A DNA stretch of 64,000 nucleotides from Candidatus Zambryskibacteria bacterium RIFCSPHIGHO2_01_FULL_46_25 (lineage in GTDB: Bacteria; Patescibacteriota; Minisyncoccia; Phycocordibacterales; Zambryskibacteraceae): NCBI GenBank assembly GCA_001825155.1, contig MHVH01000005.1, forward strand, positions 3,528-67,527, written 5' to 3'. A program made the position numbers and the translations under genes. Position 1 is the stretch's first letter. Every line of letters starts with the position of its first letter. The notes beneath the pieces are model-generated. The model did not search any database. It was not told the DNA's origin and saw nothing but the letters and a program-made list of their open reading frames with translations. This document shows, piece after piece, positions 4,822 to 63,483 of this stretch.

Positions 4822-5637
4822 ATGTCACTCAAAATAGGTATTGTCGGTCTCCCGAACGTTGGTAAATCCACGCTCTTCAACGCGCTCACCAAGCAGTCTG
4901 TGCCGGCGGAGAATTATCCTTTCTGCACCATTGATCCATCTGTTGGCATCGTGCCGGTGCCAGATGAGAGACTAGATAAACTCTCCGTTCTTTCGAAATC
5001 GAAGAAGACTATTCCGGCCGTGGTCGAGTTCGTCGACATCGCGGGCCTCGTGAGAGGCGCTTCGGAAGGGGAAGGTCTGGGCAACAAATTTCTCTCCCAC
5101 ATACGCGAAGTGGACGCCATTATTGAAGTGGTGCGAATTTTCGAAGACAAAGAAATAATCCACGTGCACGACAAGGTCGACCCGCTTTTCGATATCGAAA
5201 TCATCAATCTGGAGTTGAAAGCGGCGGGGATAGATAAACCGATTCTCTACGTTGTAAACACCAGCGAGGCTTCAGAGAACAGACGCGAGATGCTCGACAA
5301 GATTCCCGGGCCCTACATCGAGATAGATCCCATTTTCGGCACGGGCTTGGACAAACTTATCATCGAAGCATACAAGCTTCTCGACCTTATAACTTTTCTT
5401 ACGACTGGGGAGAAAGAAAGCAGAGCGTGGACGACGCATCGCGGGGCCACCGCGCCGGAAGCGGGCAAGTCTATCCACACCGATTTCAAAGACAAATTCA
5501 TCCGCGCCGAAGTCATACACTGGGATAAGCTTCTCGAAGCGGGCTCTTACGTTGCCGCCCGCGCCAAGGGCTGGGTCCGCATCGAAGGCAAAGAGTACAT
5601 CGTCCAAGATGGCGACGTCATGGAGTTTCTTATCTAG
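4822..5637 (+). CDS. ychF: Obg-family ribosome-binding ATPase YchF (compact form)
   Basis: G1 [16 protein letters not shown]3 motif, C-terminal TGS-like region (…[21 protein letters not shown]). 271 aa, shorter than the usual 360 or so. Confidence 0.8.
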
Positions 5638-11338: not shown

Positions 11339-12219
11339 TGAAGGATCAATCGCAGGCAGTGAAGGTTTATTTATTTCTTGTGGGGATTATCGTGCTTGTG
11401 GCTGCTGTGAGATATCTTACGCCACCCAGCGATTTTCCAACCGGTTCCATGGTTACAGTAGTGGAAGGTTCAGGACTCTATGTGCTTGCGGAGAACTTAC
11501 AAGAACAAAATGTCATACGCTCTCCCTTTTGGTTTCGCGCTGCCGCTATACTTCTCGGCGGAGAAAGAGATATGAAAGCCGGCCAGTATTATATGGAGCG
11601 ACCCCAAAATCCCTTTTTCGTCGCCTGGCGTATCCATCAGGGTCGGTACGACGTCGAGACGGTCAGGCTTACTGTGCCGGAAGGATTTACAATAAAAAAG
11701 ATTTCCGCGCTTTTTGATGAACGCTTCCCATTTTTTGATAATGCGTATTTCGAGAACTCGGCTCCAGAAGGGTATCTCTTTCCGGACACGTACTTCGTGC
11801 CAGTTACCGCGTCGGCTTCTTCGACGGTAAAGATAATGCGAGACAATTTCATCAGAAAAATTTTCCCCGTAATGCCAGAAGTGGAGGATTCTGGGAAAGA
11901 GCTTGAAGATATCATCATCGTGGCCTCGCTCATAGAAGGGGAGGCGAATAATCAAAAAGATAGGGAAATAGTTTCCGGTATTTTGTGGAAGAGGCTCAAA
12001 ATAGGCATGCCGCTCCAAGTGGACGTGGAAAAGAAGACGTACGAATTCCAGGGCTTGCCAAAAAGCCCGATCAATAATCCCGGTCTCGACAGCATAAGGG
12101 CGGCACTTCATCCCACTTCGACGCCCTATCTCTATTATTTGACCGGTGATGACGGCAACATGTACTATTCCAAGACCTTTGACGAACATGTTGCCAAGAA
12201 GCAAAAATATATCAAGTAA
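11338..12219 (+). CDS. mltG: endolytic murein transglycosylase MltG/YceG
   Basis: N-terminal TM helix. YceG-like motifs (EGYLFPDTY, …GLPKSPINNPG…). Confidence 0.85.
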   Translation: MKDQSQAVKVYLFLVGIIVLVAAVRYLTPPSDFPTGSMVTVVEGSGLYVLAENLQEQNVIRSPFWFRAAAILLGGERDMKAGQYYMERPQNPFFVAWRIHQGRYDVETVRLTVPEGFTIKKISALFDERFPFFDNAYFENSAPEGYLFPDTYFVPVTASASSTVKIMRDNFIRKIFPVMPEVEDSGKELEDIIIVASLIEGEANNQKDREIVSGILWKRLKIGMPLQVDVEKKTYEFQGLPKSPINNPGLDSIRAALHPTSTPYLYYLTGDDGNMYYSKTFDEHVAKKQKYIK

Positions 12220-13327
12220 AAAGGTTTACGTCGGACTCTCCGGCGGGGTTGACTCTGCTGTCTCAGCAGCTTTGCTTAAGGAGCAAGGTTTCGATGTGAC
12301 CGGCGTTTTTATTAAGGCGTGGCAGCCAGAATGGATGGCTTGCATTTGGCGTGAGGAGCGCCGGGACGCCATGAGAGTTGCTCTCGCGCTTGATATTCCA
12401 TTTCTTTTTTTAGATTGCGAGCGTGAGTACAAGCAGGCGGTAGTGGATAAGATGATTGCCGAGTACAAAGCGGGCCGCACACCGAATCCGGACGTGCTCT
12501 GCAATCGGGAAATCAAGTTCAGCGTCTTTTGGGAAAAAGCTCGCGAACTCGGCGCGGACTATATTGCAACCGGGCATTATGCGAGAAATCCCTCCCTGCC
12601 CCTCCCTTTGTCAAGGGAGGGGAATAAAACTGATACCCCCTTGATAAAGAGGGCTGGGGGATTGTGTGAAGGAGTCGACAAAGAAAAAGATCAAAGTTAT
12701 TTTCTCTGGATTCTGACCGAAAAGGACTTGTCCCACGTCATTTTTCCGGTGGGAGATTTGGAGAAGAGGGAAGTGCGAGAACTCGCGCAGAAATTCAAAT
12801 TACCCGTGGCGGAGAAGAAGGATAGCCAGGGTATATGCTTCATGGGTGATGTTTCCATGGAGGAATTTCTCTCCCACTATGTTTCCGCGAAGCCCGGCAA
12901 AGTTATGAACGCCGATGGAGAAGTGATAGGCAGGCACGAAGGTCTTGTCTACTACACTATCGGCGAACGGCGCGGCTTCGAAGTGACAAAAAAGAGCGCC
13001 GCGAGCGGGCCGTTCTATATTGTGGCGAAGGACCCGGACACGAATACTCTTGTCGTATCTGACAAAGAAGAAGAGATTCTGGAATTTTCTCCGACCAAAA
13101 TACTTTTGAAAAATGTTAATTGGATTAATGAGCCAGAGAATTCGGAAATTTCCGGCAGAGTCCGCTATAGGGGAGAGAAATTGCCTCTAAGGCTGTCGGT
13201 TGTGGGTCGTCGGTTGTCTGTTGAATTCAAGAATCCCGTTCCCGGCCTCTCTCTCGGTCAGTCGCTGGTCTTCTACGACGGCGAGAATTGCCTCGGCGGC
13301 GGCATCATGGACAAAGTTTTGGAATAA
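12188..13327 (+). CDS. mnmA: tRNA-specific 2-thiouridylase MnmA
   Basis: PP-loop VGLSGGVDSAV, AEYKAGRTPNPDVLCN, C-terminal GQSLVFYDGENCLGGG. Start codon uncertain; ATG 12188 overlaps the mltG end. Carries an 81-bp in-frame repeat insertion. Confidence 0.85.
   Translation: MLPRSKNISSKKVYVGLSGGVDSAVSAALLKEQGFDVTGVFIKAWQPEWMACIWREERRDAMRVALALDIPFLFLDCEREYKQAVVDKMIAEYKAGRTPNPDVLCNREIKFSVFWEKARELGADYIATGHYARNPSLPLPLSREGNKTDTPLIKRAGGLCEGVDKEKDQSYFLWILTEKDLSHVIFPVGDLEKREVRELAQKFKLPVAEKKDSQGICFMGDVSMEEFLSHYVSAKPGKVMNADGEVIGRHEGLVYYTIGERRGFEVTKKSAASGPFYIVAKDPDTNTLVVSDKEEEILEFSPTKILLKNVNWINEPENSEISGRVRYRGEKLPLRLSVVGRRLSVEFKNPVPGLSLGQSLVFYDGENCLGGGIMDKVLE
12587..12667. mobile_element. 81-bp MITE-like miniature of the DUF559 TIR element, inserted in-frame in mnmA
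   Basis: Left part (aatccctccctgcccctccctttgtcaagggagggg) and right part (cccccttgataaagagggctgggggattgtgt) match the two termini of the element at 42228..42677. Length 81 is divisible by 3. Adds about 16 aa (…NPSLPLPLSREGNKTDTPLIKRAGGLCEG…) relative to canonical MnmA between GHYAR and DQSYFL. Confidence 0.6.
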
Positions 13328-13374
13328 TAATTATAGACAGCCCAAAATACATACTGAAGTGCACAAAATCCCAT

Positions 13375-13412
13375 ATACGTTATAATTATGCGGTCGCACA
13401 ATAGTAGCGTAT
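13375..13412. promoter_or_regulatory. 38-bp palindromic element (ATACGTTA-N22-TAgCGTAT), copy 1, overlapping the start codon of the PaaX-like gene
   Basis: atacgttataattatgcggtcgcacaatagtagcgtat. Near-identical copy at 14001..14038. Confidence 0.5.
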
Positions 13413-13977
13413 GGGTAAATTAGAAGAAAAAAGCGGAAAAAGATCCAAAAGAAAGCATTTGCAATACGCCATATTTCAAACTGTTGCCGCTGTCGGGGTT
13501 TTAAGCGCGGCTGTCATGGCCCCGAACGTACTAATTGCCATGGATAAGCTCGGCTCGATTCCAAACAGAAGACAGAAAGAATATATTAGTTCATCTGCCA
13601 GTAAATTAGTCAAGCGAGGACTGCTTCACTTCGATGGCAAAAGATATCAAATGACCTCAATAGGGGAGAGTCTATTCCGGCGTTGGCAATTTGCAGATTT
13701 CCAGATCCAAAAACCTAAGAGATGGGATAAAAAGTGGCGGGTTATGATTTTTGATATCCCGGAGAAGAAAAGAAAGATCAGAAATGATCTAACCACGTTA
13801 TTTCGCGCGGCCGGCATATACCGTCTCCAAAACAGCGTTTGGGTATATCCGTATGAATGCGAGGATATCATTACTTTGCTCAAAACCGATTTCGGCATCG
13901 GCAAGTATCTTCTATATATGATTGTCGATGAGCTTGAAAATGATAAATATTTGCGTCAGCACTTCGGTCTTATCTAG
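13411..13977 (+). CDS. PaaX-family transcriptional regulator (wHTH N-terminus, Cas2-like C-terminal region)
   Basis: WDKKWRVMIFDIPE…LQNSVWVYP resembles the PaaX WDGKW hinge and the Cas2/VapD core (catalytic-Asp region, QNSVF). 188 aa. Confidence 0.55.
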   Translation: MGKLEEKSGKRSKRKHLQYAIFQTVAAVGVLSAAVMAPNVLIAMDKLGSIPNRRQKEYISSSASKLVKRGLLHFDGKRYQMTSIGESLFRRWQFADFQIQKPKRWDKKWRVMIFDIPEKKRKIRNDLTTLFRAAGIYRLQNSVWVYPYECEDIITLLKTDFGIGKYLLYMIVDELENDKYLRQHFGLI

Positions 13978-14000
13978 CTCAATTTAATTAAAAAATCCCT

Positions 14001-14038
14001 ATACGTTAAAGTCATGCGGTCGCACAAAAGTAACGTAT
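14001..14038. promoter_or_regulatory. 38-bp palindromic element copy 2 (ATACGTTA-N22-TAACGTAT), about 58 nt upstream of the ATP-cone nuclease gene
   Basis: atacgttaaagtcatgcggtcgcacaaaagtaacgtat. TATAAT at 14083 follows. Confidence 0.5.
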
Positions 14039-23212: not shown

Positions 23213-23214
23213 TC

Positions 23215-23237
23215 ACTTAGCTGTCCGACAGCTAAGT
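23215..23237. repeat. perfect palindrome ACTTAGCTGTC-CG-GACAGCTAAGT (copy 1). Probable bidirectional terminator
   Basis: Copies at 23581..23603 and 63372..63394. Located after the rpsI stop and downstream of the minus-strand small gene. Confidence 0.6.
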
Positions 23238-23580: not shown

Positions 23581-23603
23581 ACTTAGCTGTCGGACAGCTA
23601 AGT
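23581..23603. repeat. palindromic repeat copy 2 (ACTTAGCTGTC-GG-ACAGCTAAGT)
   Basis: Brackets the AT-rich small-gene insert together with copy 1. Confidence 0.6.
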
Positions 23604-23667
23604 GCTGAAGTGGAGGAATTCCAGTGGTTGAAGTTGCATATTATTTTGCCTAGAGCATACTAACATT

Positions 23668-39977: not shown

Positions 39978-41078
39978 ATGCGAAGCAGGATAAAAGTCGA
40001 TAAGCCTTTTTTGGTCATCACGATTATACTCATCGTGGCGGGCTTTTTTATTTTCTCCTCCGCTTCTTTGGGCCTCTTGGCGAAGGAGAGTTCAAACTAT
40101 TCGAGTGTCGCGTTCTCGCAAACCGTCCTCGGCCTTTTCCTCGGCACGATTGCCATGATTCTGGCGGCCAGGCTCGATTACAAAATATGGAAAAAATGGG
40201 CTTTCTATCTCCTCATCCTGGCGGTAATTTTAAATATCATTGTTCTCATTCCTGACATCGGTTTCGAGCATGGCGGCGCGCGAAGATGGCTACGGGTAGG
40301 AGAGCTTTCTCTCCAGCCGGCCGAGGTACTCAAGTTCGCCTTCATCATCTACTTTGCCGCCTGGGCGGCGGGAGTTAAGGAAAAGATATCTACCTTCTCC
40401 ATGGGCCTCTTGCCCCTCATGACTCTCCTTGGCCTCTGTGGCATTCTCCTTCTTCTCCAGCCGGACACGGACAACTACATGGTCATCGTCGCGACCGGCA
40501 TGGGCATGTTCATAGCGGCGGGCGGTCGATGGCGGCACGTGTTAATACTGGGACTTATAGGACTTATAGGACTTATAGGACTTGCGGTAGCAAGGCCGTA
40601 TGTCATGCAGAGGATTACGACTTTTCTCAATCCGACATTGGACTCTCTTGGCTCCGGTTATCAGATACAGCAAAGCCTTATCGCTATCGGTTCCGGAGGT
40701 CTCTTCGGCACCGGTTTTGGTCAGAGTATTCAGAAATTTACCTATCTCCCGGAGCCGGTGGGCGATTCTATCTTTGCCGTGGCCGGAGAAGAGTTCGGCT
40801 TCGTGGGTTCGGTTTTGCTTATCGCGATATTCACCCTTTTTGCCGTGCGAGGGCTCAAAATCGCCGGCAATATGGAAGATAGGTTCGGTAGACTGGTGGT
40901 TGCTGGAATTGTTATAATGATTATCTCCCAGGCATTCGTCAATATAGGCGCCATGCTAGGAGTAATACCGCTTTCAGGCATTACCTTGCCCTTCGTCTCG
41001 CATGGCGGCACCTCTCTTTTCTTGAGCCTGTTTGAGATTGGCGTAATCCTTTCAGTATCCAAATCGCAAAAATCATGA
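39978..41078 (+). CDS. ftsW: SEDS-family peptidoglycan glycosyltransferase FtsW/RodA
   Basis: 10-TM SEDS topology and conserved C-terminal …GVIPLSGITLPFVSHGGTSL… Contains a 3x 9-bp tandem repeat (ggacttata) encoding LIGLIGLIG. Confidence 0.85.
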   Translation: MRSRIKVDKPFLVITIILIVAGFFIFSSASLGLLAKESSNYSSVAFSQTVLGLFLGTIAMILAARLDYKIWKKWAFYLLILAVILNIIVLIPDIGFEHGGARRWLRVGELSLQPAEVLKFAFIIYFAAWAAGVKEKISTFSMGLLPLMTLLGLCGILLLLQPDTDNYMVIVATGMGMFIAAGGRWRHVLILGLIGLIGLIGLAVARPYVMQRITTFLNPTLDSLGSGYQIQQSLIAIGSGGLFGTGFGQSIQKFTYLPEPVGDSIFAVAGEEFGFVGSVLLIAIFTLFAVRGLKIAGNMEDRFGRLVVAGIVIMIISQAFVNIGAMLGVIPLSGITLPFVSHGGTSLFLSLFEIGVILSVSKSQKS

Positions 41079-42220
41079 GAATTTTATTTACCGGCGGAGG
41101 CACAGGAGGACACTTCTACCCGATTATCTCCATTGCCGATGAGCTCAAAGCTCTCGCCAAGGACAAGAGGCTTCTTGAGCTCGAGCTCTTCTACATGTCG
41201 CCTACGCCATATGATGCAGGAACGCTCTTCGAGCACGGCCTCGAATACAGGAAGAATAGCGCCGGCAAATTGCGCCGCTCGAAATCCGGCTTGAACCTTT
41301 TCCGCAATTTCTTCGACTTATTTAAAACAGGGTGGGGGATTATCACGTCGGTTGTGCAGGTCTTCAATCTCTATCCAGACGTGGTCTTTGGCAAGGGCGG
41401 GTACGCGAGTTTCCCGGCGCTTCTGGCGGCAAGAATCTTGCGCATACCGGTCGTCATCCACGAATCCGACAGCGTGCCGGGCAAGGTTAACTTATGGGCG
41501 GGCAAATTCGCCCAAAAGGTCGCCGTTTCCTACAAAGAAGCTGGGCAGTTTTTTCCCCCGGAAAAAACTGCCTATACCGGCCAGCCTGTGCGCCGAGAAA
41601 TCGCTTCGCCGCTTCTCGAGGGAGCGAGAGAATTTCTGGGCCTCAAGGAGGATGTGCCGGTCGTCCTCATCCTTGGTGGCTCTCAAGGCTCGCAGAAAAT
41701 CAATGCCGCCGTTCTCGAAGCTTTGAAAGAACTTTTGGAGAAATACGCCGTCATCCATCAGACGGGAGGCAATAACTTCGCCGAGGTCAAAGCGACAGCC
41801 GAGGCGGTGCTCTACGGCTCAACGCACAAAGACCGCTACAAGCCATTCGATTATCTCAACACTCTGGCCATGCGCATGGCGGCCGGCCTCGCCACCATAG
41901 TGGTTTCCCGCGCCGGCTCCGCCATATTCGAAATTGCTTCGTGGGGCGCGCCATCGATTATCATCCCCATTAACGAGAAGGTGAGCCACGACCAGCACTC
42001 TAACGCCTTCGCCTATGCTCGCTCCGGTGCCTGTACCGTGGTGGAAGAAATTAATCTCTCTCCCAACATCCTCATATCCGAGATCGACAGGCTTATAGGA
42101 GACAAAATACTTACGGAAAACATGAAGGCGGCCGCTAAAGTATTCTACAAACCCGACGCCGCCAAGCTCGTGGCGGAAGAGATACTAAAGATAGCATTGG
42201 AGCATGAGATAGAGAAATAG
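41075..42220 (+). CDS. murG: undecaprenyldiphospho-muramoylpentapeptide beta-N-acetylglucosaminyltransferase
   Basis: MRILFTGGGTGGHFYP N-terminus (GT28). Confidence 0.9.
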   Translation: MRILFTGGGTGGHFYPIISIADELKALAKDKRLLELELFYMSPTPYDAGTLFEHGLEYRKNSAGKLRRSKSGLNLFRNFFDLFKTGWGIITSVVQVFNLYPDVVFGKGGYASFPALLAARILRIPVVIHESDSVPGKVNLWAGKFAQKVAVSYKEAGQFFPPEKTAYTGQPVRREIASPLLEGAREFLGLKEDVPVVLILGGSQGSQKINAAVLEALKELLEKYAVIHQTGGNNFAEVKATAEAVLYGSTHKDRYKPFDYLNTLAMRMAAGLATIVVSRAGSAIFEIASWGAPSIIIPINEKVSHDQHSNAFAYARSGACTVVEEINLSPNILISEIDRLIGDKILTENMKAAAKVFYKPDAAKLVAEEILKIALEHEIEK

Positions 42221-42227
42221 ATAAATA

Positions 42228-42677
42228 AATCCTCCCCCATAAATCCCTCCAACCCCCCTTTATCAAGGGAGGTGAATCATGAAATACAATTTTATTCCAT
42301 ATGATAAAAATCTGGTACTCCGGGCCAGAGAATTAAGAAATAATCAAACGGAAGCAGAGAAATACTTTTGGACCAATGTTCTTAAAAGTAAAAAATTCAA
42401 GACTTTCATATTTTTGAGACAAAAACCGGTTGGAAATTTCATTGTCGATTTCTACTGCTCGCGTTTGTTACTCGGCATAGAAATTGACGGCCATATCCAT
42501 GACAAGAATAGGGATAAAGAAAGAGATAATATATTAAAAGAGAAATTCGGGATTACGGTCCTTAGGTATAGAAACGAAGATGTTATGGATAATCCTGAAA
42601 AAATTGTGAAAGACCTATTGCGACAAATGAAAGGTTGATCCCTCCCTTGATAAAGGGAGGGCAGGGAGGGATTGTGT
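42228..42677. mobile_element. about 450-bp element with imperfect terminal inverted repeats (AATCC(C)TCCC… / …GGGAGGGATTGTGT) carrying a DUF559/Vsr-like nuclease gene
   Basis: Left end cctcccccataaatccctccaacccccctttatcaagggagg. Right end ccctcccttgataaagggagggcagggagggattgtgt, the reverse complement of the left end. A miniature derivative lies at 12587..12667. Confidence 0.6.
42279..42638 (+). CDS. DUF559-type endonuclease-domain protein (Vsr/PD-(D/E)xK-like)
   Basis: …RQKPVGNFIVDFYCSRLLLGIEIDGHIHD… signature of the DUF559/very-short-patch-repair-like fold. 119 aa. AT-rich. Confidence 0.7.
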   Translation: MKYNFIPYDKNLVLRARELRNNQTEAEKYFWTNVLKSKKFKTFIFLRQKPVGNFIVDFYCSRLLLGIEIDGHIHDKNRDKERDNILKEKFGITVLRYRNEDVMDNPEKIVKDLLRQMKG

Positions 42678-42689
42678 TAAAATGAGCCC

Positions 42690-43913
42690 ATGCAACAGAA
42701 AACTAGTGAAAAAGTGGTAGTCCGTATCCCGCCGTCGCCAACGGGCTTTTTCCACATTGGCCGAGCGCGTATGGCGTTGTTTAATTATCTCTTTGCCAAA
42801 AAACATGGCGGAGAAATCGTTTTTCGACTTGAGGACACAGACAAGGAGCGTTCCAAAAAAGAATTTGAAGAAGACATTATCGAATCGTTAAAATGGCTCG
42901 GCATTTCGTATGACCAAGGTCCATTCAGACAGTCGGAGAGGGGAGAGATATACAAAAAATATATTCAGAAGATGCTCGATAACGGCACGGCCTATGTTTC
43001 GCACGAGACGGAAGGGGAAAACAAGGAAGTCATCAGATTCAAGAATCCAAACAAGACCGTAACTTTTTCCGATGAGATACGAGGCGAAATATCTTTCGAT
43101 ACGACCGAACTGAAAGATTTTGTAGTGGCAAGAAATATAGATGATCCTTTGTATCACCTAACGGTTGTTATAGATGACCATGAGTCAGGTATTACGCATG
43201 TTATACGCGGAGAGGACCATATCTCCAACACTCCTCGTCAGATTCTTCTACAAGAAGCGATTGGCGCGAATAGGCCTGTGTATGCTCACCTACCCATGAT
43301 TCTTGCCCCCGACAGGTCGAAGATGTCTGCGAGGCATGGGGCCGTGTCCGTTCGCGAATACCGTGCCATGGGTTATTTGCCTCATGCCTTCAACAATTAC
43401 CTCGCGTTACTCGGCTGGAATCCGGGTACGGAGCAGGAAATATTTACCATGGAGGAGCTTATCGAGCAGTTCGATTTGAAAAAAATTCAGAAAGGCGGGG
43501 CCATATTTGACCAAAAAAAGCTCGACTGGGTAAACAAAGAGCATATCAAACTTCTGCCCGAAGCCGAGCAGAAAAAATTATTGTTGAAAAGCATCGAAAA
43601 CGAACCCTACATGACGGGTGAGCCAGAGCTTGATGTGGAGAAAATTTGCTGGAGGTATATAAATCAGGGAGAAACCATACGTCATTTAGAAAAAGTTAAG
43701 GAGCTTCTGAAAGAAGAATGGACTATATATAAAAGAGAAATAATGGCTTATTCAGAACAAGAGGGAAGAGGCAACGTTCTCTGGCCCGTGCGCTACGCGC
43801 TTACCGGTGCAGAAGCTTCCCCGGACCCGTTTATCATGCTGGAATTCCTGGGCAAAGAGAAGTCCCTTAAGCGTATCGAAAAAGCTATAATGGCTCTAAA
43901 GAATGCCAAATAG
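42690..43913 (+). CDS. gltX: glutamyl-tRNA synthetase (compact)
   Basis: PSPTGFFHIGRAR (HIGH) and KMSAR (KMSKS variant). 407 aa. Confidence 0.9.
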   Translation: MQQKTSEKVVVRIPPSPTGFFHIGRARMALFNYLFAKKHGGEIVFRLEDTDKERSKKEFEEDIIESLKWLGISYDQGPFRQSERGEIYKKYIQKMLDNGTAYVSHETEGENKEVIRFKNPNKTVTFSDEIRGEISFDTTELKDFVVARNIDDPLYHLTVVIDDHESGITHVIRGEDHISNTPRQILLQEAIGANRPVYAHLPMILAPDRSKMSARHGAVSVREYRAMGYLPHAFNNYLALLGWNPGTEQEIFTMEELIEQFDLKKIQKGGAIFDQKKLDWVNKEHIKLLPEAEQKKLLLKSIENEPYMTGEPELDVEKICWRYINQGETIRHLEKVKELLKEEWTIYKREIMAYSEQEGRGNVLWPVRYALTGAEASPDPFIMLEFLGKEKSLKRIEKAIMALKNAK

Positions 43914-54558: not shown

Positions 54559-54580
54559 TAGGAACTCCTTCCGCGGAATA

Positions 54581-54645
54581 CTCTACAATAATATTTAAAC
54601 TTCCGCAACTACATAATAACAATACGACCGTCGGCTTATTATGTA
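54581..54645. promoter_or_regulatory. 65-bp upstream repeat copy 1 (contains inverted repeat TACATAATAA-N…-TTATTATGTA)
   Basis: ctctacaataatatttaaacttccgcaactacataataacaatacgaccgtcggcttattatgta. Copy 2 at 55307..55375. Confidence 0.55.
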
Positions 54646-54692
54646 TACGATTTAAAAACGCTATAGCGTAGTTATTTCGTAATAAAACGAAT

Positions 54693-54721
54693 CGCCGGAC
54701 GTCCCATCGGGACGTCCGGCG
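54693..54721 (-). terminator. palindromic terminator after the 166-aa gene
   Basis: CGCCGGACGTCCCATCGGGACGTCCGGCG followed by a T-rich tract on the minus strand. Confidence 0.6.
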
Positions 54722-54734
54722 TGAAAAGAACAGA

Positions 54735-55235
54735 CTAGAGAAGTTGCTCCAGGCGGCTTGTCAATTCTCTCTCGACCTCGCAGAGCCCCCCGACTTCTTC
54801 ACGAATTTTCCTGGCGGCCATGTCGTCCATGACGTGAAAGTCGACGATTGTCCCAATCATCGTCGCCACGTTATGGACCTTCATCAACAAGTCCTCGACG
54901 TCTTCTGGTAGTTCGCCCGAAATCGGGAAGACCCCGAGGAAATCGAAGAGCTTGTTGACCATGCTGCGGTTGATCTTCGACACGATGCCGGTCATCGCCC
55001 GGTCAATATCCGTGTCCTGGTACGTTTCCAGGAGCTCGAGGGAAATCTCGATGTTTTCCCCGTCGAACTTGCGCTCGCCGGGCAGAACTCTCACGAAGTT
55101 CCTTCGTACTCCTGGACCGTTCGGGTCTGTTTCCTCCGGCCATTCCGTAATCTGGAGCTGATTCGGTATCTTCCCCAGTTCTTCCAACAGCCGGGCCAGC
55201 GCCTGAATCGGAACCCTTGTCTTGAAAAGAGCCAT
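54735..55235 (-). CDS. hypothetical protein (166 aa)
   Basis: AGGAGG SD. Monocistronic unit with its own repeat-containing upstream region and terminator. Confidence 0.45.
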   Translation of the reverse strand: MALFKTRVPIQALARLLEELGKIPNQLQITEWPEETDPNGPGVRRNFVRVLPGERKFDGENIEISLELLETYQDTDIDRAMTGIVSKINRSMVNKLFDFLGVFPISGELPEDVEDLLMKVHNVATMIGTIVDFHVMDDMAARKIREEVGGLCEVERELTSRLEQLL

Positions 55236-55306
55236 GCTGTCCTCCTGTAGGCAAAGCCTACCTGGAAACTTCGAGTGCGGAATTGCTCTCGAATGGACAA
55301 CCTAAA

Positions 55307-55375
55307 CTCTACAATAATATTTAAATATACGCAACTACATAATAAGCCGACGACCGTTTGCTTATTATGTAGTTG
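55307..55375. promoter_or_regulatory. 65-bp upstream repeat copy 2 (CAACTACATAATAA-N16-TTATTATGTAGTTG)
   Basis: ctctacaataatatttaaatatacgcaactacataataagccgacgaccgtttgcttattatgtagttg. Confidence 0.55.
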
Positions 55376-55402
55376 TGGCTAGGGAGTTACAAAATAAAAG
55401 AC

Positions 55403-63228: not shown

Positions 63229-63300
63229 GGCCCTATCGTCTATCGGCTAGGACACAGCCTTCTCAAGGCTGGAAGCGGAGTTCGATTCTCCGTAGGGTCA
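63229..63300 (+). tRNA. tRNA-Glu (anticodon CTC)
   Basis: Hand-folded cloverleaf. Acceptor GGCCCTA/TAGGGTC (one G-U). D-arm GTCT…GGAC. Anticodon stem CAGCC/GGCTG with loop TTCTCAA. T-arm CGGAG-TTCGATT-CTCCG. Discriminator A. No encoded CCA. Confidence 0.6.
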
Positions 63301-63371: not shown

Positions 63372-63394
63372 ACTTAGCTGTCCAACAGCTAAGT
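63372..63394. repeat. palindromic repeat copy 3 (ACTTAGCTGTC-CA-ACAGCTAAGT)
   Basis: Third member of the 23215 and 23581 family. Followed by a perfect 22-bp palindrome ACACTATGATA/TATCATAGTGT at 63401..63422. Confidence 0.6.
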
Positions 63395-63483
63395 TGTGAC
63401 ACACTATGATATATCATAGTGTCCTACGTTATCTTTTAGCTATAGCAGAATTGTAACGTATGTGAATTTTTGCAAACGCGAAG

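What the first reader, a model, noticed from the sequence alone, without database searches (positions are those of the whole stretch)
42228..42677. Compact TIR-bounded element encoding only a DUF559/Vsr-like nuclease, inserted between murG and gltX
An AT-rich 450-bp segment interrupts the murG-gltX intergenic region. It is bounded by about 40-bp imperfect inverted termini (AATCCTCCCCCATAAATCCCTCCAACCCCCCTTTATCAAGGGAGG … CCCTCCCTTGATAAAGGGAGGGCAGGGAGGGATTGTGT), and each terminus can itself form a hairpin. The only gene is a 119-aa DUF559-type PD-(D/E)xK endonuclease (Vsr-like). With the miniature copy inside mnmA, this looks like an autonomous/non-autonomous pair of a small mobile element. Its mobility protein would be a homing-type or nicking nuclease rather than a transposase (inference). 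DUF559 genes are frequently multi-copy, but their status as mobile units is not well described.
Basis: partly seen in the sequence, partly recalled or inferred. Interest (0 to 1): 0.65.

Follow-up and report, generated by a model that had tools for sequence, protein, structure and literature searches.

The report
Small nuclease gene bracketed by triplex-motif repeats
A small nuclease gene of unknown function (DUF559) sits between two inverted copies of a known but unexplained bacterial repeat (BoxC / triplex motif), and the same gene-plus-repeat pairing recurs from tiny groundwater bacteria to E. coli, which suggests this nuclease is the missing partner enzyme of those repeats.

Summary
A 119-aa DUF559 nuclease gene (42279-42638) is bracketed by inverted 31-34-nt G/C-rich units. 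A gene-less doublet of the same unit lies in frame inside mnmA.

The "TIRs" are not private to this element. They have the architecture of the known BoxC / PIT / intrastrand triplex motif (TM) repeats: C-arm, loop, G-arm, 2-3 nt, mirror G-arm. One degenerate pattern found at least 120 loci in many phyla.

Among 70 independent DUF559 loci, unit density is 9/kb within 150 bp of the gene and 0.5/kb or less further out. DUF559 is the only gene family that recurs beside the units. E. coli ycjD (DUF559) has a unit across its stop codon and a published TM copy 168 nt downstream.

The closest relatives (MurG 92% and 86% identical) have an empty murG/gltX junction. However, the gene co-diverges with its neighbours, the insert edges lie outside the repeats, and no clear target duplication exists.

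Best reading: a nuclease-repeat partnership resembling RAYT/REPIN, not a classical TIR transposon. No searchable paper links DUF559 to TM repeats. Nuclease action on the repeats is inferred, not shown.

The parts
42221..42706 (.). Block present here but absent from the murG/gltX junction of the closest relatives (486 nt). Order: leader, left repeat, DUF559, right repeat, trailer.
   Evidence: Alignment A4 with the empty sites L212 (MurG 92% identical) and L210/L214 (86%). The edges are approximate because the flanks have diverged. TAG occurs at both edges (42218-42220 and 42704-42706).
42228..42238 (+). Partial extra copy of the outer C-arm (AATCCTCCCCC) in the leader.
   Evidence: Read directly from the sequence. 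It resembles the outer arm AATCCCTCC at 42242-42250.
42242..42272 (+). Left triplex-motif (TM) unit, C-rich strand shown: outer C-arm AATCCCTCC, AA, C-arm CCCCCCTTT, loop ATC, G-arm AAGGGAGG.
   Evidence: Pattern match, inverted repeat I1, four-way alignment A1, fold -5 kcal/mol.
42267..42272 (+). Shine-Dalgarno-like GGGAGG, 6 nt before the ATG. It forms part of the G-arm, so the hairpin would mask it.
   Evidence: Read from the sequence. The same layout appears upstream of many homologues. The masking itself is inferred.
42279..42638 (+). DUF559 nuclease gene, 119 aa, PD-(D/E)xK superfamily with a Vsr / EDxHD-type fold.
   Evidence: Pfam PF04480 E=1.6e-28. NCBIfam PRK09767 (YcjD) E=1e-16, below that model's cut-off. 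PDB 3HRL E=2e-20 by profile. AF2 model pLDDT 89; Foldseek hits 3HRL, 3R3P (I-Bth0305I) and Vsr. Invariant D57, E68, D70 and H74 across 30 homologues. pN 0.175 against pS 0.82 versus L130.
42640..42673 (+). Right TM unit, G-rich strand shown: C-arm CCCTCCCTT, loop GATA, G-arm AAGGGAGGG, CA, mirror G-arm GGGAGGGAT(T). It starts one base after the stop codon.
   Evidence: Fold -10 kcal/mol, z = -3.5. 51 of 52 nt (unit plus part of the trailer) are identical to L130 although synonymous sites are saturated. It fits the C-stem / loop / G-stem / loop / G-stem layout of PMC4666352.
42675..42683 (+). TGTTAAAAT, resembling an extended -10 promoter element, facing gltX.
   Evidence: Read from the sequence. 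TGnTAAAAT or TGnTATTAT follows the right-hand unit in many related loci. The simple sigma-70 scan did not call it. Promoter function is inferred.
42690..43913 (+). gltX. Its start codon and first five codons lie inside the inserted block.
   Evidence: In empty-site relatives gltX starts inside or right at the end of murG.
41075..42220 (+). murG, the upstream neighbour.
12587..12663 (+). Gene-less doublet of the same TM unit (left unit 12587-12622, 13-nt spacer, right unit 12636-12663). It is translated in frame inside mnmA as NPSLPLPLSREGNKTDTPLIKRAGGL.
   Evidence: It corresponds to 15 extra residues against solved MnmA structures and 20 extra residues against the modal length of 121 close homologues. 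The doublet folds at -17.2 kcal/mol, z = -3.2.
12146..13327 (+). mnmA, host gene of the doublet.
   Evidence: Pfam tRNA_Me_trans E=5.8e-72. PDB MnmA E=2e-87.

Best explanation
**What it is.** The segment is one instance of a recurrent module. A small DUF559 nuclease gene (PD-(D/E)xK superfamily, Vsr / EDxHD homing-endonuclease fold) is bracketed by inverted copies of a G/C-rich repeat. The repeat has the architecture of the BoxC / PIT / 'intrastrand triplex motif' (TM) class: C-arm, loop, G-arm, 2-3 nt, mirror G-arm.

**Shown by tool results.**
- The gene and the repeats are tightly and specifically associated across many lineages.
- Gene-less singlets and doublets of the repeat are dispersed, including in frame inside mnmA here.
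- The module is present or absent at the same junction in close relatives.
- The gene is under purifying selection and the flanking repeats are far more conserved than synonymous sites.

**Inferred.**
- DUF559 is the partner nuclease of TM repeats. It recognises the structured repeat (hairpin or triplex) and nicks or cuts there.
- That action drives, or controls, the copying of repeat units to new sites, and occasionally the gain or loss of the whole module.
- This would be a resident gene with dispersed repeats, analogous to RAYT with REP/REPIN, but using a Vsr-fold nuclease instead of a HUH transposase.

**Local effects in this window (inferred).**
- The left repeat would mask the gene's ribosome-binding site.
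- The right repeat is followed by an outward sequence resembling an extended -10 element and by the start codon now used by gltX.
For: **Association in DUF559 loci**
- In 70 non-redundant metagenomic DUF559 loci, hairpin-unit density is 9.05/kb within 150 bp of the gene. It is 0.5/kb or less at 150-900 bp and about 0 beyond 1.5 kb.
- Of 60 loci with both flanks available, 54 have a unit upstream and 49 downstream. Forty have the inverted '+ upstream, - downstream' bracket, and only 2 have none.
- Many homologue ORFs read into the unit, giving PPLIKGG-type tails.
- 34% of 148 diverse DUF559 representatives carry unit-encoded peptide motifs, against 0 of 120 MurG and 0 of 120 MnmA homologues.

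**Spread of the repeat and its neighbours**
My own estimate of the chance expectation is about 0.2.
- The hits come from Patescibacteria, Geomonas, Thiobacillus, Ignavibacteria and others.
- The only gene family recurring next to these units is DUF559: 5 loci, each 26 nt or less from a unit. No transposase or RAYT recurs.
- In Thiobacillus L065 the gene is flanked by doublets on both sides.

**E. coli**
- The DUF559 gene ycjD has a TM-like unit across its stop codon.
- Published TMECO no. 9 (1351204-1351239) lies 168 nt downstream of it.
- ycjD is single-copy in 3378 of 5426 complete genomes.
- Sampled genomes that carry the ycjD-locus copy have 13-28 TM places. Those without it have 1-20, and the ST131 strain JJ2434 has 1.

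**Mobility signals**
- Empty murG/gltX junctions occur in relatives with 92% and 86% MurG identity.
- The mnmA doublet is absent from most homologues.
- DUF559 plus repeat-encoded peptides occur embedded in long ORFs, for example HsdS-like P0382.

**Constraint**
- The right unit plus trailer is 51/52 identical between the window and L130, although pS is 0.74-0.83 in the genes.
- Within each locus, all units share one subtype.

**Fold**
- The closest solved folds are 3HRL, the homing endonuclease I-Bth0305I (3R3P) and Vsr.
Against: **No direct evidence of activity.** Nothing here shows that DUF559 binds or cuts the repeat; everything rests on association.

**Poor fit to a transposon**
- There is no clear target-site duplication.
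- The inserted block extends beyond the repeats.
- Unit order and orientation vary between loci: X..X', X'..X, or doublets on both sides.

**Signs of long residence**
- The gene co-diverges with MurG (Mantel r = 0.49), and its dN equals that of gltX.
- It therefore looks vertically inherited rather than actively moving.
- Only one copy lies in the 64-kb window, and all contigs carrying the exact protein show the same locus.

**Weak points in the cross-genome support**
- 115 of 120 repeat loci have no DUF559 within about 4 kb.
- E. coli lineages that lack the ycjD-locus copy still keep up to 12-20 repeats.
- That comparison is confounded by phylogroup.
- In a second genome the mnmA doublet (L219) is a different subtype from the units flanking that genome's DUF559 (L221).

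**Alternative role for the repeats.** The flanking units also look like cis-regulatory parts (SD masking, promoter), which could explain their conservation without any mobility.
Confidence: 0.5

Rival explanations
1. Free-standing homing endonuclease gene. DUF559 cuts the empty murG/gltX junction, or another conserved target, in genomes that lack it, and is copied in by repair. The flanking repeats are only its cis-regulatory hairpins (SD mask, 3' stabiliser, outward promoter). Dispersed repeats elsewhere spread by unrelated means.
For: - Presence/absence occurs at exactly the same junction among close relatives.
- The same murG-DUF559-gltX arrangement appears in many lineages.
- The fold matches the homing endonuclease I-Bth0305I. 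DUF559-type domains are reported as the EDxHD homing endonuclease family (PMC9403480; PMC3424549).
- The insert supplies a start codon for gltX, so the host gene stays functional.
Against: - It does not explain gene-less doublets of the same unit inside mnmA.
- It does not explain why DUF559 is the only recurrent neighbour of the units in distant phyla and in E. coli.
- DUF559 divergence tracks MurG divergence. Frequent horizontal homing would erase that signal.
- The other DUF559 loci lie in many unrelated contexts: uvrB/tgt, pth, dnaE, smc, ftsE and others.
Confidence: 0.2
2. Host maintenance enzyme. TM repeats arise and spread by replication or recombination accidents. DUF559 is a repair-type structure-specific nuclease that removes or limits the damage done by triplex or hairpin structures. 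The repeats next to the gene are operator-like sites for autoregulation.
For: - Inheritance is vertical and single-copy.
- The gene is under purifying selection.
- The flanking units are strongly conserved.
- The fold is Vsr-like.
- TM loci are reported as hot spots of genomic instability (PMC4666352).
- TM copies persist in E. coli lineages without the ycjD-locus copy.
Against: - A suppressor would predict more repeats, or more damage, where the gene is absent. In the E. coli sample, genomes lacking the ycjD locus have fewer repeats.
- The gene is dispensable in very close relatives. In the sampled loci those relatives also lack any repeats.
- It does not explain why the units conserve their loop and terminal sequences across phyla.
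Confidence: 0.2
3. Nothing special. The hairpins are ordinary terminators of murG and of the DUF559 gene, and the similarity to the mnmA sequence is chance.
For: The right unit is a stable hairpin directly after a stop codon.
Against: - There is no T-run and no terminator call.
- The same unit, including its third arm, lies inside the mnmA coding sequence.
- Five matches were found against 0 in shuffles.
- At least 120 loci match across phyla.
- Enrichment next to DUF559 genes is about 20-fold.
Confidence: 0.02

Closest known systems
BoxC / PIT elements / intrastrand triplex motifs (TM, 'TMECO' in E. coli). Sources: Bachellier et al. 1990s; Hoyne et al. 2000; Holder et al. 2015 (PMC4666352).
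   Same: - The unit architecture is the same: C-stem, loop of 3-6 nt, G-stem, short second loop, and a second G-stem mirroring the first.
- Both are multi-copy and occur as singlets and as inverted doublets.
- Both are found in many phyla.
- Both show presence/absence variation between close strains.
   Different: - The arm sequence differs: CCCTCCCTT / AAGGGAGGG here against CCCTCNCCC / GGGNGAGGG in TMECO.
- The published work reported the motif as always intergenic. It also stated that no mobility-related genes were ever found nearby.
- Here one doublet is in frame in a gene, and a DUF559 nuclease gene is the recurrent neighbour, including at published TMECO no. 9 next to ycjD.
REP / REPIN repeats with their RAYT (REP-associated tyrosine transposase). 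This comparison rests on my own knowledge of Nunvar et al. 2010 and Bertels & Rainey 2011; I did not read these papers here.
   Same: - A single-copy, largely vertically inherited gene is flanked by inverted copies of a short structured repeat.
- The same repeat is dispersed as singlets and as inverted doublets.
- Repeat subtype is uniform within a locus.
   Different: - The enzyme is a Vsr-fold PD-(D/E)xK nuclease, not a HUH/Y1 transposase.
- The repeat has three arms (triplex-capable) and lacks the GTAG head.
- Very similar units occur across phyla, which is unusual for REPs.
EDxHD homing endonucleases (I-Bth0305I, PDB 3R3P) and Vsr (PDB 1CW0)
   Same: The catalytic fold is shared (Foldseek E=4e-4 and 0.06). 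A published classification groups them in one PD-(D/E)xK clade (PMC3424549).
   Different: - The gene here is free-standing, not inside an intron or intein.
- It has no extra DNA-binding domain.
- The motif reads E-x-D-x-H-x-H-D rather than EDxHD.
- There is no adjacent cytosine methyltransferase as with Vsr.
Rickettsia palindromic elements (RPE). Own knowledge of Ogata et al. 2000; not read here.
   Same: A short palindromic repeat is inserted in frame in a housekeeping protein, at a surface loop that tolerates it.
   Different: The sequences are unrelated, the unit here has three arms, and a candidate partner gene is present.
MITE with its autonomous TIR transposon
   Same: There is a long copy with a gene and a short gene-less copy bounded by the same inverted repeats.
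   Different: - No transposase is present.
- The repeats are not at the exact insertion edges.
- There is no clear target duplication.
- The orientation of units varies between loci.

Membership tests
Pfam DUF559 (PF04480) | Profile match above the curated cut-off. | tested here: met
   99.1 bits against a cut-off of 20.6, E=1.6e-28, covering profile positions 3-108 of 109.
NCBIfam PRK09767 (E. coli YcjD equivalog) | Score above the equivalog cut-off of 218 bits. | tested here: not met
   61 bits, E=1e-16. It is a homologue of YcjD, not an equivalog.
Vsr very-short-patch repair endonuclease | Sequence family match and a partner cytosine methyltransferase. | tested here: not met
   There is no Vsr Pfam hit among the listed families. 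Similarity is at the fold level only: 1CW0 E=0.064 and 1VSR E=0.1. The neighbours are murG and gltX, with no methyltransferase.
EDxHD homing endonucleases (I-Bth0305I) | Vsr-like catalytic fold. | tested here: met
   Foldseek hit to 3R3P_B: E=3.9e-4, TM 0.58/0.69.
EDxHD homing endonucleases (I-Bth0305I) | Encoded inside a group I intron or an intein. | tested here: not met
   The ORF is free-standing in an intergenic block. Rfam finds no intron anywhere in the window.
BoxC / PIT / intrastrand triplex motif repeats | C-stem, loop of 1-6 nt, G-stem, loop of 1-6 nt, second G-stem mirroring the first, with at most one mismatch. | tested here: met
   Right unit: CCCTCCCTT-GATA-AAGGGAGGG-CA-GGGAGGGAT. 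The stem is 9/9 and the mirror arm 8/9 (compared with the criteria quoted). The left unit and the mnmA units are looser.
BoxC / PIT / intrastrand triplex motif repeats | Many dispersed copies, singlets and inverted doublets. | tested here: met
   At least 120 loci across phyla, many with inverted pairs. Only two sites occur in this 64-kb window.
BoxC / PIT / intrastrand triplex motif repeats | The TMECO consensus sequence CCCTCNCCC...GGGNGAGGG. | tested here: not met
   The arms here are CCCTCCCTT / AAGGGAGGG, or CCCCC / GGGGG in other phyla. It is the same architecture but a different sequence subfamily.
BoxC / PIT / intrastrand triplex motif repeats | Forms an intrastrand triplex in vitro. 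| not testable with these tools
   The folding tools model Watson-Crick hairpins only.
REP/REPIN-RAYT system | The partner gene is a HUH Y1 transposase. | tested here: not met
   The gene is DUF559. No other gene family recurs next to the units.
REP/REPIN-RAYT system | The gene is flanked by inverted repeats of the dispersed unit, and gene-less inverted doublets exist. | tested here: met
TIR transposon / MITE | A transposase in the long copy. | tested here: not met
   The only ORF with a family match is DUF559.
TIR transposon / MITE | TIRs at the exact ends, plus a target-site duplication. | tested here: inconclusive
   The block missing from empty sites runs 21 nt and 33 nt beyond the repeats. 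Only a TAG is shared at both edges, and the flanks are 8-18% diverged.

The most novel reading that the evidence does not exclude
Short stand-alone DUF559 nucleases, including E. coli YcjD, are the long-missing partner enzymes of BoxC / PIT / triplex-motif repeats across bacteria. They would recognise the three-armed structured repeat and drive its copying and turnover. That would make a second gene-repeat symbiosis of the REPIN/RAYT type, independent of HUH enzymes. It would also explain in-frame repeat insertions in housekeeping proteins of reduced genomes.
Probability: 0.4. Interest if true: 0.85.

Novelty: new variant of a known kind. Interest (0 to 1): 0.72.

Why it matters
- **Two open questions joined.** BoxC / PIT / triplex-motif repeats have been known in E. 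coli since the 1990s. The main survey (PMC4666352) found thousands of TMECO copies in 262 proteobacterial genomes. It assigned no function to the motif and found no mobility genes beside it. DUF559 is a very large family: 13,566 representatives of 50%-identity clusters at E<=1e-10. I found no paper reporting an experimentally shown function for stand-alone DUF559 proteins such as YcjD.
- **What a real link would give.** It would assign a role to both. It would add a new enzyme class to the gene-repeat partnerships so far typified by RAYT/REPIN. It would offer a cause for the 'genomic instability' seen at TM loci.
- **Testability.** The idea can be tested directly in E. coli with ycjD.

Tried and rejected
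- **Rfam.** A scan of the whole window found only a tRNA, so the units are not a curated RNA family.
- **Phage and defence libraries.** PHROGs gave no hit. PADLOC gave only marginal hits, DpdF at E=6e-4. I therefore did not treat the gene as a phage or defence gene.
- **Viral contigs.** Only 3 repeat hits and no DUF559 relatives were found, so a phage vehicle is not supported.
- **Terminator explanation.** Rejected: no T-run and no scan call, and one doublet lies inside a CDS.
- **Exact-protein contig look-up.** All 9 places shown are the same locus, and the three I aligned are identical in sequence. This gave no empty-site information. I switched to MurG homologues.
- **A RAYT or any transposase next to the units.** None recurs in the 120 cross-phylum loci.
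- **Literature.** Searches for DUF559, ycjD, the repeat sequence strings, and palindromic repeats in Patescibacteria found no paper linking the gene to the repeats.
- **Repeat subtype in a second genome.** I tested whether that genome's mnmA doublet matches its DUF559-flanking subtype. It does not (L219 against L221), so this gives no support.
- **Gain versus loss at murG-gltX.** Not resolved. MurG and GltX identities rank the relatives differently.
Full report
**1. The observation**

The window comes from a groundwater Parcubacteria population. The exact DUF559 protein is found on contigs of GCA_001003005.1 and GCA_001003935.1, and in every place shown it sits in the same murG-DUF559-gltX context.

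The ORF at 42279-42638 encodes 119 aa and matches Pfam DUF559 at E=1.6e-28. It lies between murG and gltX. The gene is 33% GC, against 49% for the window and 54% for murG.

It is bracketed by an inverted repeat. Arms 42253-42272 and 42641-42660 are 95% complementary over 20 nt. Aligned with two more copies inside mnmA, the shared unit extends to about 32 nt. The core is found five times in the window at up to 3 mismatches and never in 100 shuffles.

The doublet at 12587-12663 is translated in frame within mnmA.

**2. What the repeats are**

Each unit has three arms. In the right unit these are:
- C-arm CCCTCCCTT
- loop GATA
- G-arm AAGGGAGGG
- spacer CA
- a second G-arm, GGGAGGGAT, that mirrors the first

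This is the architecture published for BoxC / PIT / 'intrastrand triplex motif' (TM) repeats. Holder et al. 2015 give the pattern C-stem, loop 3-6, G-stem, loop 3, G-stem. They list 23 copies in E. coli MG1655, five of them as inverted doublets, and report thousands of copies in 262 proteobacterial genomes.

The hits came from Patescibacteria, Geomonas, Thiobacillus, Ignavibacteria, Kapaibacterium, Peribacteria, Gracilibacteria and others. I estimate about 0.2 matches would be expected by chance.

The 'TIRs' are therefore copies of a widespread repeat with the architecture of a known class, though of a different sequence subfamily from the E. coli consensus. They are not classical terminators: there is no T-run, the scan does not call them, and one pair is inside a coding sequence. 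Rfam has nothing for them.

**3. The link to DUF559**

*Metagenomic DUF559 loci.* Using an alignment of 30 homologues I fetched 80 metagenomic DUF559 loci, 70 of them non-redundant.
- Hairpin units occur at 9.05/kb within 150 bp of the gene. Density is 0.5/kb or less at 150-900 bp and essentially zero beyond 1.5 kb.
- Of 60 loci with both flanks available, 54 have a unit upstream and 49 downstream. Forty have the inverted bracket, and only two have none.
- Many homologue ORFs run into the downstream unit and end in PPLIKGG-type tails.
- 34% of 148 diverse family representatives carry such peptide motifs, against none of 120 MurG and none of 120 MnmA homologues.

*Starting from the repeats instead.* In the 120 cross-phylum loci, the only gene family that recurs beside the units is DUF559. 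It appears in five loci, each 26 nt or less from a unit, including Thiobacillus, Saccharibacteria and Peribacteria. No transposase or RAYT recurs.

*Subtype concordance.* Within each locus all units share one subtype. The 'ATT-end' subtype of the window is concentrated among the DUF559 proteins most similar to the window's: 5 of the top 13 against 1 of the other 57.

**4. E. coli as an independent check**

The NCBIfam model that matches the window protein is YcjD. In MG1655:
- ycjD lies at 1351407-1351760 on the minus strand.
- A TM-like unit overlaps its stop codon.
- Published TMECO no. 9 (1351204-1351239) lies 168 nt downstream.

The 2015 paper does not mention ycjD or any endonuclease. It states that no mobility-related genes were found near TMs.

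ycjD is single-copy in 3378 of 5426 complete E. coli genomes. A 2026 paper reports it in phylogroups A, B1 and C, replaced by eefRABCD elsewhere.

In an evenly spaced sample, genomes carrying the ycjD-locus TM copy have 13-28 TM places. Genomes without it have 1-20, and the ST131 strain JJ2434 has 1. This fits a link, but phylogroup confounds it.

**5. Mobility**

*Empty sites.* The closest relatives by MurG have empty junctions:
- At 92% identity (L212, L213), gltX starts immediately after murG.
- At 86% identity (L210, L211, L214), the two genes overlap.
- None of these loci contains a DUF559 gene or a unit.

Compared with L212, the extra block in the window is about 42221-42706. It runs 21 nt and 33 nt beyond the repeats. 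It contains the start codon now used by gltX and the sequence TGTTAAAAT, which resembles an extended -10 element. Only a TAG is shared at both edges.

*The mnmA doublet.* It corresponds to 15 extra residues against solved MnmA structures. It corresponds to 20 extra residues against the modal length of 121 close homologues. The same loop holds other, unrelated inserts in other Parcubacteria.

*Evidence for long residence.*
- About 30 of the 80 fetched DUF559 loci show a MurG and/or GltX match beside the gene, with MurG identity down to about 50%.
- DUF559 divergence tracks MurG divergence (Mantel r = 0.49, p = 0.003).
- Against L130 (MurG 82% identical, site occupied), DUF559 dN is 0.20. That equals gltX, and synonymous sites are saturated.

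The gene is therefore a long-term, mostly vertically inherited resident. The empty sites may be losses rather than the ancestral state; I could not settle this.

The right unit plus trailer is 51/52 identical between the window and L130 despite that saturation. The flanking repeats are therefore under strong constraint or are being homogenised.

**6. The protein**

The AlphaFold model is confident (pLDDT 89). Its best structural matches are the uncharacterised Neisseria DUF559 protein 3HRL, the catalytic domain of the homing endonuclease I-Bth0305I (3R3P), and Vsr. A published classification puts Vsr, DUF559 and 3R3P in one PD-(D/E)xK clade. D57, E68, D70 and H74 are invariant in 30 homologues. 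PHROGs and PADLOC give nothing useful, and viral contigs hold no relatives.

**7. Interpretation**

*Shown:*
- a specific, cross-phylum association between short DUF559 genes and TM repeats
- gene-less copies of the repeat, including one in frame in a housekeeping gene
- presence/absence of the module among close relatives
- purifying selection on the gene and stronger conservation of its flanking units

*Inferred:* DUF559 acts on the structured repeat and thereby drives or controls its copying. This would be a resident-gene-plus-dispersed-repeat partnership like RAYT/REPIN, built on a Vsr-fold nuclease.

I put about 0.95 on the association being real. I put about 0.5 on the partnership explanation as stated.

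*Rivals:*
- A free-standing homing endonuclease whose repeats are only regulatory (0.2).
- A host repair nuclease that polices triplex structures (0.2).
- Plain terminators or chance (0.02).

*Weak points:*
- There is no biochemical evidence.
- There is no clear target duplication.
- Unit order varies between loci.
- Repeats persist in lineages without the gene.
- One check failed: subtype concordance in a second genome.

**8. Novelty**

The repeat class and the protein family are each known. Seven searches of the paper library found no paper linking them, and the main TM paper reports that no associated mobility genes were found. I rate this a new variant of a known kind (a gene-repeat partnership), with interest 0.72. 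It would answer two old questions and can be tested in E. coli.

Noticed in passing
L215 (E. coli MG1655, NC_000913.3 1346000-1353000), locus positions 5195-5420: ycjD (DUF559) has a TM-like unit across its stop codon and published TMECO no. 9 lies 168 nt downstream. Between the two lies a degenerate duplicate of the ycjD 3' end (about 5300-5370).
   Followed up: partly
E. coli complete genomes: TM copy number is 13-28 in sampled genomes that carry the ycjD-locus copy and 1-20 in those that lack it; the ST131 strain JJ2434 has 1. ycjD is single-copy in 3378 of 5426 genomes. Phylogroup confounds this comparison.
   Followed up: partly
L193 (UvrB), L137 (PrfB), L077 (RNase HII): Housekeeping proteins in related loci carry in-frame peptides that look repeat-encoded (KSPHDKGDLGG in UvrB, RPPLSKGRVGEG in PrfB). 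In L077 the DUF559 ORF reads through a unit into rnhB.
   Followed up: no
window 12560-12700 and MnmA homologues P0241-P0360: The MnmA loop between GHYAR and KDQSYFL is an insertion hot spot in Parcubacteria. The modal segment is 27 aa (51 of 121), but many homologues have 31-60 aa with unrelated inserts. L219 carries a different TM-type doublet at the same loop.
   Followed up: partly
proteins P0382, P0363, P0384: DUF559 domains with repeat-encoded peptides sit inside very long predicted proteins. Examples are a 588-aa HsdS-like protein, a 1214-aa protein with two DUF559 copies, and a C-terminal fusion to what looks like an aminoacyl-tRNA synthetase fragment. These may be whole-module insertions into genes.
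   Followed up: no
window 42675-42683 and loci L132, L154, L155, L169, L189: A TGnTAAAAT or TGnTATTAT sequence resembling an extended -10 element follows the right-hand unit and faces the downstream gene in many loci. In some loci one also lies 7-10 nt before the DUF559 ATG.
   Followed up: no
window 42279-42638 and L130 3001-3351: The DUF559 gene stays at 33% GC in two lineages whose neighbouring genes are 44-54% GC, although synonymous sites between the two lineages are saturated.
   Followed up: no
L221 2870-3550: In another occupied murG-DUF559-gltX locus, about 680 extra nt with two small reverse ORFs lie between the DUF559 module and gltX. The spacer seems to collect further insertions.
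   Followed up: no
window 54580-55378: Two 66-nt repeats (86% identical, each with a hairpin) flank a 166-aa ORF on the minus strand (54735-55235).
   Followed up: no
window 23214-23237, 23581-23604, 63372-63398: A near-perfect 24-nt palindrome (ACTTAGCTGTCCGACAGCTAAGT) occurs three times. Two copies flank a 343-nt stretch after rpsI, and one lies near the tRNA at 63229-63300.
   Followed up: no
window 13365-13412 and 13991-14038; also 8097, 31058, 32435, 34286: A 48-nt repeat flanks the ORF 13411-13977 just downstream of mnmA. An AT-rich 30-nt repeat (TTGAAAATTGGAAATTGCAAATTGAAAATT) occurs four times.
   Followed up: no
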